Source: Escherichia coli (lineage in GTDB: Bacteria; Pseudomonadota; Gammaproteobacteria; Enterobacterales; Enterobacteriaceae). From it: 64,000 bases of DNA. The stretch lies in assembly GCF_024298765.1 (NCBI RefSeq), contig NZ_CP101210.1. One strand, given 5' to 3'. Under the pieces are notes generated by a model. It was not told where the DNA came from, ran no database searches, and worked only from the letters and a program-made list of their open reading frames with translations. Shown here piece by piece: positions 21,502 to 22,897 of the stretch. Made by a program: the position numbers and the translations under genes. How positions within the stretch are numbered: position 1 is the stretch's first letter; the number at the start of each line of letters is the position of its first letter.

Positions 21502-21535
21502 TTTTTCTCCAGAATCTCTGTGTAGTAAAAGTTAG

Positions 21536-22730
21536 GGAAGGTGCGAACAAGTTCCTGATATGAGATCATCATATTCATCCGGAGCGCATCCCAGAGGGAC
21601 ATCATGAGCCATCAACTCACCTTCGCCGATAGTGAATTCAGCACTAAGCGCCGTCAGACCCGAAAAGAGATTTTCCTCTCCCGCATGGAGCAGATTCTGC
21701 CATGGCAGAATATGACCGCTGTCATCGAGCCGTTTTATCCCAAGGCGGGCAATGGCCGACGGCCCTATCCGCTGGAGACCATGCTGCGTATTCACTGCAT
21801 GCAGCATTGGTACAACCTGAGCGACGGTGCCATGGAAGATGCCCTGTACGAAATCGCCTCCATGCGCCTGTTTGCCCGATTATCCCTGGATAGCGCCCTG
21901 CCGGATCGCACCACCATCATGAATTTCCGCCACCTGCTCGAGCAGCATCAACTGGCCCGTCAATTGTTCAAGACCATCAATCGCTGGCTGGCCGAAGCAG
22001 GCGTCATGATGACCCAAGGCACTTTGGTGGATGCCACCATCATTGAGGCACCCAGCTCTACCAAGAACAAAGAGCAGCAACGCGATCCGGAGATGCATCA
22101 GACCAAGAAAGGCAATCAGTGGCACTTTGGCATGAAGGCCCACATTGGTGTCGATGCCAAGAGTGGCCTGACCCACAGCCTGGTCACCACCGCGGCCAAC
22201 GAGCATGACCTCAATCAGCTGGGTAATCTGCTTCATGGAGAGGAGCAATTTGTCTCAGCCGATGCCGGCTACCAAGGAGCGCCACAGCGCGAGGAGCTGG
22301 CCGAGGTGGATGTGGACTGGCTGATCGCCGAGCGTCCCGGCAAGGTAAAAACCTTGAAGCAGCATCCGCGCAAGAACAAAACGGCCATCAACATCGAATA
22401 CATGAAAGCCAGCATCCGTGCCAAGGTAGAGCACCCGTTTCGCATCATCAAGCGGCAGTTCGGCTTCGTGAAAGCCAGATACAAGGGGCTGCTGAAAAAC
22501 GATAACCAACTGGCGATGTTATTCACCCTGGCCAACCTGTTTCGGGTGGACCAAATGATACGTCAGTGGGAGAGATCTCACTAAAAACTGGGGATAACGC
22601 CTTAAATGGCGAAGAAACGGTCTAAATAGGCTGATTCAAGGCATTTACGGGAGAAAAAATCGGCTCAAACATGAAGAAATGAAATGACTGAGTCAGCCGA
22701 GAAGAATTTCCCCGCTTATTCGCACCTTCC
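21536..22730 (+). mobile_element. IS5, complete 1195 bp, flanked by 4-bp target duplication TTAG
   Basis: Ends GGAAGGTGCGAACAAG (21536) and CTTATTCGCACCTTCC (22730); TTAG at 21532-21535 and 22731-22734. Confidence 0.9.
21604..22584 (+). CDS. insH: IS5 transposase InsH (326 aa)
   Basis: Translation matches recalled IS5 transposase ([12 protein letters not shown]...RQWERSH). Confidence 0.9.
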
Positions 22731-22897
22731 TTAGCAAAACCTGTGGAAGTGAATCATTATCAGGTTGGAATTGAATTGTATCCTGATGAAATTACATTAT
22801 CATTTTTATTCTTGAGTGGGCTCTTCCCATATAGAAATAATTATAATGGGCAGTGTTATTATTCATTGAAATATAATATTGCTGCCCTTGAAACATT

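What the first reader, a model, noticed from the sequence alone, without database searches (positions are those of the whole stretch)
21532..22734. IS5 inserted in the divergent yegJ/yegI promoter region
A complete 1195-bp IS5 with intact 326-aa transposase and perfect TTAG target duplication lies 34 bp upstream of the yegJ start codon and about 165 bp upstream of yegI. IS5 insertions in intergenic regulatory DNA are well known to activate or silence neighbouring operons (bgl, glpFK, fucAO, flhDC). Here it splits the kinase gene from yegL-yegK and may rewire expression of the triad.
Basis: partly seen in the sequence, partly recalled or inferred. Interest (0 to 1): 0.5.

Follow-up and report, generated by a model that had tools for sequence, protein, structure and literature searches.

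The report
IS5-family insertion upstream of yegJ/yegI
A real, intact 1.2-kb jumping gene of the IS5 family (an ISKpn26/IS5 hybrid, not textbook IS5) has recently landed between the E. coli genes yegJ and yegI, at a spot that two other strains were hit at independently. It is an ordinary kind of event whose effect on the neighbouring genes is plausible but untested.

Summary
A 1195-bp element lies at 21536-22730 with 15/16 terminal inverted repeats, a perfect TTAG duplication and an intact 326-aa transposase. It sits 34 bp from the yegJ ATG and 163-167 bp from the yegI ATG.

- It is not canonical IS5 (94.65% identity). Nt 1-1012 are ISKpn26-type and nt 1046-1195 are identical to IS5, including the 177-bp bent/IHF region. 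This hybrid is widespread.
- It does not split an operon. The low-GC yegJ cassette, present in about 35% of complete E. coli genomes, already separates yegI from yegL-pphC.

New findings:
- A near-isogenic genome (GCA_001893805.1) has the predicted empty site, so the insertion is recent.
- Two other lineages carry canonical IS5 (ES4) and ISKpn26 (23AR1101) at the same TTAG in the same orientation, which marks a hot spot.
- The element lies between the published candidate yegJ promoter and yegJ, so it probably uncouples yegJ.
- Its IS5-type 3' end faces yegI, the orientation seen in known IS5 activations.

No expression data exist, so any rewiring is inference. It is a new member of a known kind, of modest interest.

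The parts
21532..21535 (.). Left copy of the 4-bp target-site duplication, TTAG (a YTAR target)
   Evidence: A single TTAG occupies this position in empty-site genomes.
21536..22730 (+). Complete 1195-bp IS5-family element, an ISKpn26/IS5 recombinant
   Evidence: Identity is 94.65% to MG1655 IS5A and 96.49% to the ISKpn26 copy of strain 23AR1101. Copies 100% identical occur in many E. coli chromosomes and plasmids.
21536..21551 (+). Left terminal inverted repeat, GGAAGGTGCGAACAAG
22715..22730 (-). Right terminal inverted repeat, GGAAGGTGCGAATAAG on the minus strand (15/16 match with the left repeat)
21604..22584 (+). Transposase gene (ins5A/insH type), 326 aa and intact
   Evidence: NF033581, 366.8 bits. 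It differs by 1 aa from the ISKpn26-type protein and by 6 aa from MG1655 InsH1.
21532..21807 (-). Minus-strand 91-aa ORF inside the IS whose stop codon (TAA) lies in the target duplication. It lies where the literature places the ins5CB region and reads out toward yegJ.
   Evidence: for the ORF. PMC11677980 for the existence of the ins5CB operon and the negligible activity of its promoter. Which published gene name applies to this ORF was not checked.
21880..22248 (-). Second minus-strand ORF inside the IS (122 aa, TTG start), also in the ins5CB region
   Evidence: and PMC11677980. The name assignment was not checked.
22547..22581 (+). Interval containing the ISKpn26-to-IS5 crossover. The last ISKpn26-diagnostic site is IS nt 1012 and the first IS5-diagnostic site is nt 1046.
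22554..22730 (+). 3'-terminal 177-bp 'IB' region (A-tract bend plus the IHF site GATTCAAGGCATTT). It is 100% identical to canonical IS5 and faces yegI.
   Evidence: The function of IB in glpFK activation comes from PMC2753651.
22731..22734 (.). Right copy of the target-site duplication, TTAG
21040..21501 (-). yegJ (DUF2314, 153 aa), intact. Its remaining 34-nt leader with the GGAG ribosome-binding site is 21502-21535.
   Evidence: PF10077
22775..22803 (-). Candidate sigma-70 promoter of yegJ (ATGATA-17-TACAAT), now separated from yegJ by the IS
   Evidence: Found by the scan. The same hexamers are proposed for yegJ in the RpoD genomic SELEX study PMC3946193.
22812..22882 (+). Candidate yegI promoter elements, all retained to the right of the IS: TTGAGT-18-AATAAT (22812-22841) and GTGTTA-18-TATTGC (22853-22882). 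The second is the window-allele counterpart of the K-12 TTGTTA-18-TATAAC.
   Evidence: No experimental transcription start site was found.
22898..24844 (+). yegI (Ser/Thr kinase, 648 aa), intact
   Evidence: The exact protein occurs in 23 or more public contigs.
19558..20975 (+). yegL (19558-20217) and pphC/yegK (20214-20975), convergent with yegJ

Best explanation
A copy of a widespread ISKpn26/IS5 recombinant insertion sequence transposed recently into the TTAG of the AT-rich, H-NS-associated spacer between the divergent genes yegJ and yegI. This is DDE-transposase transposition that leaves a 4-bp YTAR target duplication.

The spacer is a natural hot spot. Canonical IS5 and ISKpn26 hit the same tetranucleotide, in the same orientation, independently in two other E. 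coli lineages.

The most likely direct effect in cis falls on yegJ. The IS lies inside the yegJ leader, between the published candidate promoter and the start codon. yegJ should therefore lose its own promoter and be silenced, or at most be weakly driven from inside the IS.

The promoter-proximal 163 bp of yegI are untouched. Any effect on yegI would be modulatory and comes second in likelihood.

Shown here: the identity, integrity, chimeric structure and recency of the element, the empty site, and the recurrence. Inferred: the cause of the hot spot, the uncoupling of yegJ, and any change in yegI.
For: - Anatomy and duplication.
- Family model.
- Chimera: 68 ISKpn26-type diagnostic sites up to nt 1012, then 39 IS5-type sites from nt 1046.
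- The hybrid predates this insertion: 100% identical copies occur in many E. coli chromosomes and plasmids.
- Recency: L011 (GCA_001893805.1) shares the neighbouring IS150 and has 100% identical chromosomal flanks, but its spacer is empty.
- Recurrence: 23AR1101 carries ISKpn26 (1196 bp) and ES4 carries IS5 (100% identical to MG1655 IS5A) at the same TTAG in the same orientation. The three elements differ from one another by 3.5-8.7%, and the outer flanks differ by 1.3-4%.
- No other split site: only two records in 5426 genomes have the site split by a large insertion.
- Site choice: the K-12-type spacer has four YTAR sites, yet the same one was used.
- Context: the spacer has 31% GC and lies in the least stable 1.6-5% of the window by nearest-neighbour energy.
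- H-NS: the spacer is flagged HNS in PMC3946193. yegJ rises 223-fold in an hns mutant of strain 042 (PMC7582179).
- Known target preference: IS5 prefers YTAR inside destabilised, H-NS-rich DNA (PMC5493358).
- Promoter position: the candidate yegJ promoter ATGATA-17-TACAAT at 22803-22775 lies on the far side of the IS.
- No replacement promoter: no sigma-70-like match faces yegJ between 21400 and 22770. The internal IS5 promoters are reported as nearly inactive (PMC11677980).
Against: - No transcription start site data for yegJ or yegI could be found. The promoter positions are therefore consensus guesses, supported only by an in vitro RNA-polymerase binding peak in K-12.
- yegJ is barely expressed in laboratory K-12 anyway (PMC13232886), so 'silencing' may have no phenotype.
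- Transcripts from the yegJ promoter could read through the IS. The terminator-like hairpins on that strand are not more frequent than in shuffled sequence.
- The same orientation in three events has a chance probability of 0.25. It might reflect selection rather than target structure.
- The rough chance estimate for recurrence at one site (4e-4 to 6e-2) depends on an unknown number of independent insertion events.
Confidence: 0.7

Rival explanations
1. The insertion activates yegI. In yegJ-type strains yegI is cut off from the yegL-pphC operon. The IS5-type IB end (A-tract bend plus IHF site) placed upstream of the intact yegI promoter could stimulate it as at glpFK and flhDC. Alternatively, the GC-rich IS could break H-NS silencing that spreads from yegJ and the spacer, as at bgl and ade. 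Selection for this effect would explain the repeated, same-orientation insertions.
For: - The orientation matches every known IS5 activation: ins5A promoter distal, 3' end proximal (PMC2753651).
- The window's last 177 bp are 100% identical to IS5 IB.
- The IS end would sit at about -118 from a start site predicted from TTGAGT-18-AATAAT. The corresponding positions are -126.5 at glpFK and -99.5/-169.5 at flhDC.
- The spacer is H-NS-associated.
- yegI is poorly expressed under all conditions tried.
- All three events share one orientation.
Against: - No expression data exist.
- The yegI start site is unknown. The published candidate promoter would put the IS end near -160.
- The 23AR1101 insertion is true ISKpn26, whose 3' end differs from IB at about 39 positions, including the IHF core (TCAA to TCAG). 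An IB-dependent benefit therefore cannot explain all three events.
- glpFK activation depends on helical phase, and the phase here is unknown.
- Only 3 carriers are known, against about 1900 yegJ-type genomes, so there is no sign of a sweep.
Confidence: 0.25
2. The recurrence reflects selection against yegJ rather than a structural hot spot. YegJ is toxic when overproduced, so insertions that disconnect it from its promoter would be favoured whenever H-NS silencing is leaky.
For: - YegJ overproduction damages the membrane, destabilises rRNA and arrests growth (PMC13232886).
- yegJ is strongly H-NS-repressed.
- IS1 interrupts the yegJ coding sequence in two further genomes.
- The IS lies between the candidate promoter and the ATG.
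Against: - Selection against yegJ would be satisfied by insertion anywhere in the gene, in either orientation. Yet all three IS5-family events use one tetranucleotide and one orientation.
- yegJ is intact in all three carriers.
- The toxicity was seen only with plasmid overexpression.
Confidence: 0.15
3. There was one ancestral insertion, spread by recombination, whose IS content was later overwritten by gene conversion from other IS5-family copies. On this reading there is no recurrence.
For: - 23AR1101 and ES4 have identical K-12-type sequence for 300 bp on each side of the IS.
- The window element is itself a recombinant, so IS-IS exchange does occur.
Against: - IS5 and ISKpn26 differ from nt 18 to nt 1178. 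A conversion tract would have only about 17 bp of terminal homology on each side.
- The window's immediate flanks are a different allele, with about 40 differences in 634 bp.
- A relative with 100% identical flanks has the empty site.
- The K-12-type flanks are also identical to MG1655, which has no insertion, so identical flanks carry no information.
Confidence: 0.03

Closest known systems
IS5 (type sequence, e.g. IS5A/insH1 of E. coli K-12 MG1655)
   Same: It has the same length (1195 bp), the same 16-bp inverted repeats and the same YTAR 4-bp duplication. The transposase is the same size (326 aa) with 320/326 identical residues. The last 150 bp or more, including the whole 177-bp IB region, are identical.
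   Different: Overall identity is only 94.65%. All 62 mismatches lie in nt 1-1012, where the element follows ISKpn26.
ISKpn26 (1196-bp IS5-family element, dominant on Klebsiella and E. coli plasmids; known from memory for mgrB disruption in Klebsiella)
   Same: Nt 1-1012 are essentially identical. The transposase differs by 1 aa, and RefSeq annotation gives copies of this variant that name.
   Different: The 3' 150 bp are IS5-type (39 differences and 1 bp shorter). That includes the IHF core and several A-tracts. The hybrid is a minority variant: 102 of the top 5000 plasmid records reach 99% identity, against 3562 for ISKpn26 proper.
IS5 activation of glpFK and flhDC (IB/IHF-dependent) and of fucAO (fusion promoter)
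   Same: The insertion is upstream of a poorly expressed gene in an AT-rich regulatory spacer. The ins5A promoter is distal and an intact IS5 IB is proximal to yegI. The distance to the predicted promoter falls in the same range.
   Different: Activation has not been demonstrated and the start site is not known. There is no Crp-like site in the upstream flank that could build a fucAO-type fusion promoter. One of the three natural insertions lacks IS5-type IB.
IS insertions that relieve H-NS silencing (bgl, ade)
   Same: The target is a low-GC, H-NS-associated region around a silent gene pair.
   Different: Here the IS also separates one of the two genes (yegJ) from its own candidate promoter. 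The expected result is one gene lost and one gene possibly gained, and neither has been measured.

Membership tests
IS5 family insertion sequence (IS5 group) | About 1.2-kb element bounded by 16-bp imperfect terminal inverted repeats, GGAAGGTGCGAAYAAG | tested here: met
   1195 bp with a 15/16 inverted repeat
IS5 family insertion sequence (IS5 group) | 4-bp target-site duplication at a YTAR tetranucleotide, with a matching empty site elsewhere | tested here: met
   TTAG on both sides. A single TTAG is present in empty alleles, including a near-isogenic genome.
IS5 family insertion sequence (IS5 group) | Single long ORF encoding a DDE transposase of the IS5 family | tested here: met
   NF033581 at 366.8 bits against a cut-off of 140, over model positions 1-285/285. 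320/326 residues are identical to InsH1. The catalytic residues were not examined individually.
Canonical IS5 (type sequence) | Near-identity to the IS5 type copy over its whole length | tested here: not met
   94.65% identity overall. Nt 1-1012 are ISKpn26-type and only nt 1046-1195 are IS5-type. By the ISfinder isoform rule as I recall it (over 90% nucleotide or over 95% amino-acid identity), it would still count as an isoform of both.
IB/IHF-dependent IS5 promoter activation (glpFK/flhDC type) | IS oriented with the ins5A promoter distal and the 3' IB region proximal to the activated gene | tested here: met
   ins5A runs in the same direction as yegI, and IB (22554-22730) abuts the yegI side
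IB/IHF-dependent IS5 promoter activation (glpFK/flhDC type) | Intact 177-bp IB with A-tracts and the IHF site | tested here: met
   100% identical to MG1655 IS5 IB
IB/IHF-dependent IS5 promoter activation (glpFK/flhDC type) | Insertion at a suitable distance and helical phase upstream of an intact native promoter | tested here: inconclusive
   All candidate yegI promoter elements are retained. The predicted distance is about -118 or about -160 depending on which candidate is used. No experimental start site was found.
IB/IHF-dependent IS5 promoter activation (glpFK/flhDC type) | Higher, IHF-dependent expression of the downstream gene | not testable with these tools
   Needs expression measurements
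fucAO-type fusion promoter (upstream genomic activator site plus the IS5 transposase promoter) | Activator (Crp) site in the genomic flank just upstream of the IS left end | tested here: not met
   No TGTGA-N6-TCACA match with 3 or fewer mismatches between 20832 and 21710
IS-mediated relief of H-NS silencing (bgl/ade type) | Target region bound and silenced by H-NS | tested here: inconclusive
   Evidence comes only from the literature on other strains. The spacer is flagged HNS in K-12 (PMC3946193), and yegJ rises 223-fold in 042 delta-hns (PMC7582179). The low GC content was confirmed here.

The most novel reading that the evidence does not exclude
The yegJ-yegI spacer would be a natural counterpart of the laboratory IS5 'activation' loci. 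Three different IS5-family variants were captured at one tetranucleotide in one orientation because the insertion is adaptive. It would switch off the toxic, H-NS-silenced yegJ and at the same time turn up the orphaned Ser/Thr kinase gene yegI, through the IS 3' end or through loss of H-NS spreading. That would rewire the YegI/PphC phospho-signalling module in wild isolates.
Probability: 0.15. Interest if true: 0.55.

Novelty: new member of a known kind. Interest (0 to 1): 0.3.

Why it matters
On its own this is a routine IS polymorphism. It has some value for three reasons.

(1) It identifies a previously undescribed natural hot spot for IS5-family insertion, with three independent hits. A near-isogenic empty allele (GCA_001893805.1) is available as a ready-made control.

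(2) YegI/PphC is a poorly understood Ser/Thr kinase-phosphatase pair for which no inducing condition is known. An IS allele that changes yegI or yegJ expression would be a useful natural tool.

(3) The hybrid element carries the IS5 activating 3' end on an ISKpn26 body, while true ISKpn26 lacks that sequence. Comparing the three natural alleles at one site would test whether the IB region matters outside laboratory selections.

Tried and rejected
- **Transcription start sites.** I looked for experimental start sites of yegJ and yegI in the supplements of four transcriptome papers. One further paper was not held. Nothing was found.
- **Wider junction search.** A 30-nt junction pattern covering both alleles and both orientations found no match in JGI metagenome contigs.
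- **Source genome.** No complete RefSeq E. coli genome has this junction at 100% identity, so the source genome is not in that collection and the strain was not identified.
- **fucAO-type Crp site.** None is present in the left flank.
- **Terminator between pphC and yegJ.** None was detected by the simple scan, so read-through from yegL-pphC cannot be judged.
- **Outward-facing sigma-70-like promoters.** None was found at either IS end by the tool's criteria.
- **Known RNA families.** None lies in the spacer. The only Rfam hits nearby are the two Sib RNAs.
- **Single ancestral insertion with IS gene conversion.** Considered and rejected.

Full report
**1. Observation**

- TTAG is at 21532-21535 and 22731-22734.
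- Between the two copies lies a 1195-bp element (21536-22730).
- It ends in GGAAGGTGCGAACAAG and GGAAGGTGCGAATAAG, which form a 15/16 inverted repeat.
- The ORF at 21604-22584 (+) encodes an uninterrupted 326-aa protein. It matches the NCBIfam IS5-family transposase model NF033581 over its full length, at 366.8 bits against a cut-off of 140.
- yegJ (21040-21501, minus strand, 153 aa, DUF2314) starts 34 bp to the left of the element.
- yegI (22898-24844, plus strand, 648 aa) starts 167 bp to the right, or 163 bp not counting the duplicated TTAG.
- yegL (19558-20217) and pphC/yegK (20214-20975) lie further left and converge on yegJ.
- No second copy of the element is in the window.

**2. The empty site exists, and the insertion is recent**

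A reconstructed empty site (flanks joined over a single TTAG) matches about 1900 of 5426 complete E. coli genomes over at least 80% of its length, with best identity 99.8%.

A look-up of the exact YegI protein found 23 or more public contigs, and every place shown had an empty 197-bp spacer. One of them is L011 (GCA_001893805.1, contig MOKZ01000006.1).
- It shares the window's neighbouring IS150 insertion.
- It is 100% identical to the window over 19244-21535 and 22731-28844. All 10 differences fall inside IS150.

The insertion is therefore younger than the IS150 insertion, and a near-isogenic control exists. No complete RefSeq genome has the window's junction at 100%, so the source genome is not in that collection.

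**3. What the element is**

It is not the textbook IS5. Identity is 94.65% to MG1655 IS5A and 96.49% to the 1196-bp ISKpn26 copy of strain 23AR1101. Those two references are 91.3% identical to each other.

The diagnostic positions sort cleanly.
- Up to IS nt 1012 there are 68 sites of ISKpn26 type, with two isolated IS5-type sites and one unique site.
- From nt 1046 to the end, all 39 sites are of IS5 type.
- The crossover lies at window 22547-22581, in the last codons of the transposase gene.

The protein accordingly differs from the ISKpn26-type protein only at residue 326, and from InsH1 at six residues.

The hybrid is an established circulating variant.
- Copies 100% identical occur in many E. 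coli chromosomes and plasmids.
- 349 E. coli records reach 99% identity or more. RefSeq names these copies 'IS5-like element ISKpn26 family transposase'.
- It occurs on plasmids of Escherichia, Salmonella and Edwardsiella.
- It is much rarer there than ISKpn26 proper: 102 against 3562 of the top 5000 plasmid records at 99% or more.

The recombination therefore predates this insertion.

The IS5-derived part includes the whole 177-bp 'IB' region (22554-22730), which is 100% identical to IS5. This A-tract bend plus IHF site is necessary and sufficient for IS5 activation of glpFK (PMC2753651). ISKpn26 differs from it at about 39 positions, including the IHF core (TCAA to TCAG).

**4. The locus**

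The literature reports two architectures. One is yegL-pphC-yegI with 4-nt overlaps (REL606, O157:H7). The other is a K-12 form with yegJ inserted on the opposite strand (bioRxiv 10.1101/819920; PMC13232886). I confirmed both.
- O157:H7 TW14359 has pphC and yegI overlapping and no yegJ.
- About 2800 genomes match the empty-site query only from about nt 57 of yegI onward.
- The yegJ form is not limited to K-12. It is in about 35% of complete genomes, including O121:H19 strains.

yegJ has 41% GC and the spacer 31%, against 50-53% for the neighbouring genes. The separation of yegI from yegL-pphC is therefore a property of the yegJ cassette and was not caused by the IS.

**5. Recurrence**

Exactly two complete genomes carry an IS at this junction, and only two records in the collection have the site split into two places.
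- Strain 23AR1101 (L001) has ISKpn26.
- Strain ES4 (L002) has canonical IS5, 100% identical to MG1655 IS5A.
- Both elements sit at the same TTAG in the same orientation as in the window.

The evidence favours three independent events.
- The three elements differ by 3.5-8.7% over their whole length, from nt 18 to nt 1178.
- The window's immediate flanks are a different allele, with about 40 differences in 634 bp.
- The outer flanks of 23AR1101 and ES4 differ from each other by 1.3-2.2%.
- A single insertion followed by complete replacement of the IS by gene conversion would have to work with about 17 bp of terminal homology.

Site choice is specific. The window-type spacer contains only this one YTAR. 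The K-12-type spacer has four, and the same one was used twice.

Under uniform targeting of about 35,000 YTAR sites, the chance of two further hits at this site is roughly 4e-4 to 6e-2. The range depends on how many independent IS5-family insertions the collection holds (1000 to 13,903). The result is a further four-fold lower for matching orientation. This is a rough estimate, not a test.

Both carriers are rich in these elements, with 36 and 15 places against a median of 2.

**6. Why here**

Several lines point to a favoured target.
- IS5 is reported to prefer YTAR tetranucleotides within easily melted (SIDD), H-NS-rich DNA (PMC5493358).
- The spacer is in the least stable 1.6-5% of the window by a simple nearest-neighbour proxy.
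- It is flagged as H-NS-associated in the RpoD genomic SELEX study (PMC3946193).
- yegJ is de-repressed 223-fold at 25 C and 6.4-fold at 37 C in an hns mutant of strain 042 (PMC7582179).

A true SIDD calculation was not available.

**7. Likely consequences**

*yegJ.* The promoter scan finds ATGATA-17-TACAAT on the minus strand at 22803-22775. These are the very hexamers proposed as the yegJ promoter in PMC3946193. In the empty allele the transcript would start about 68 nt before the ATG, so the IS sits in the middle of this leader. With the IS present the candidate promoter is 1.2 kb away.
- No sigma-70-like site faces yegJ anywhere between 21400 and 22770.
- The internal IS5 promoters are described as nearly inactive (PMC11677980).

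The most likely direct effect is loss of yegJ expression. YegJ is toxic when overproduced and barely expressed in K-12 (PMC13232886). IS1 interrupts yegJ in two other genomes. Loss is evidently tolerated.

*yegI.* All candidate promoter elements (22812-22841 and 22853-22882) remain. The IS is oriented with the ins5A promoter distal and IB proximal, as in every described IS5 activation: glpFK, flhDC and fucAO.
- The IS end would lie about 118 bp upstream of a start site predicted from the first candidate. The corresponding positions are -126.5 at glpFK and -99.5/-169.5 at flhDC.
- The start site is unknown, and the second candidate would put the IS end near -160.
- A fucAO-type fusion promoter is unlikely, because the left flank has no Crp-like site (mechanism in PMC11894529).
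- Activation is possible but unproven. The ISKpn26 allele of 23AR1101 lacks IS5-type IB, so an IB-based benefit cannot account for all three events.

**8. Verdict**

The feature is real and correctly located.
- It is an ordinary IS5-family insertion of a known hybrid variant, sitting at a natural hot spot not previously described.
- The literature search found no paper linking IS5 with this locus.
- The regulatory interpretation is reasonable, but it is better stated as 'probably disconnects yegJ, possibly modulates yegI'. It remains untested.
- Interest is modest.

**9. Dead ends**

- Start-site tables.
- Metagenome junction search.
- Terminator scan between pphC and yegJ.
- Rfam scan of the spacer, which returned only the two Sib RNAs nearby.

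Noticed in passing
window 17801-19243: A complete IS150 is present: 1443 bp, ORFs of 173 and 283 aa matching the IS3-family model, and a 3-bp duplication (CCC). It lies between the two Sib/Ibs toxin-antitoxin repeats, SibB at 17488-17630 and SibA at 19263-19411. Its right end is 34 bp upstream of the ibsA start codon (19278), so it probably displaces the ibsA toxin promoter and touches the SibA 3' end. It is absent from MG1655, 23AR1101 and ES4 and present in GCA_001893805.1.
   Followed up: partly
L011 (GCA_001893805.1, MOKZ01000006.1) versus window 17699-28844: This is a near-isogenic relative. It has the same IS150 insertion and 100% identical chromosomal flanks, but its yegJ-yegI spacer is empty. 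All 10 differences lie inside IS150 (18322-19100), which may reflect assembly collapse or IS-IS conversion.
   Followed up: partly
window 20976-22954 (yegJ cassette); L013: The cassette comprises yegJ, the spacer and the first 56 nt or so of yegI. It is a low-GC replacement segment found in about 35% of complete E. coli genomes, including O121:H19. This contrasts with published statements that yegJ is restricted to K strains. The N-terminal 19 or so residues of YegI therefore differ between the two architectures.
   Followed up: partly
window 1699-1701 and 4040-4057: Relative to MG1655, gatR is uninterrupted (no IS3E) and the PR-X prophage remnant (ogrK-yegZ) is absent. The first 1.7 kb are 100% identical to K-12, while the yeg region is only 96-97% identical, which suggests a mosaic chromosome.
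   Followed up: no
window 59500-64000: An extra 331-aa ORF (59647-60642) lies between wcaM and galF (60885-61778). An IS3-like copy (about 62056-63202, 99.6-99.9% identical to MG1655 IS3E in two pieces) sits just downstream of galF, at the start of the O-antigen cluster.
   Followed up: no
E. coli genome hits H31/H32 (strains LR-29-1, EEC_W5): IS1 is inserted inside the yegJ coding sequence in two genomes that carry the window-type allele (99.8% identity). This is another sign that yegJ is dispensable.
   Followed up: no
L002 (strain ES4) 7665-9575 and 12076-12600: In the ES4 genome, which carries IS5 at the same site, yegI is annotated as 1911 bp instead of 1947 bp and dgcE is frameshifted.
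   Followed up: no
L007-L010, L013 versus window 17300-19450: The number of Ibs/Sib repeats upstream of yegL varies. Several relatives and O157:H7 have three ibs genes, while the window and K-12 have two.
   Followed up: no
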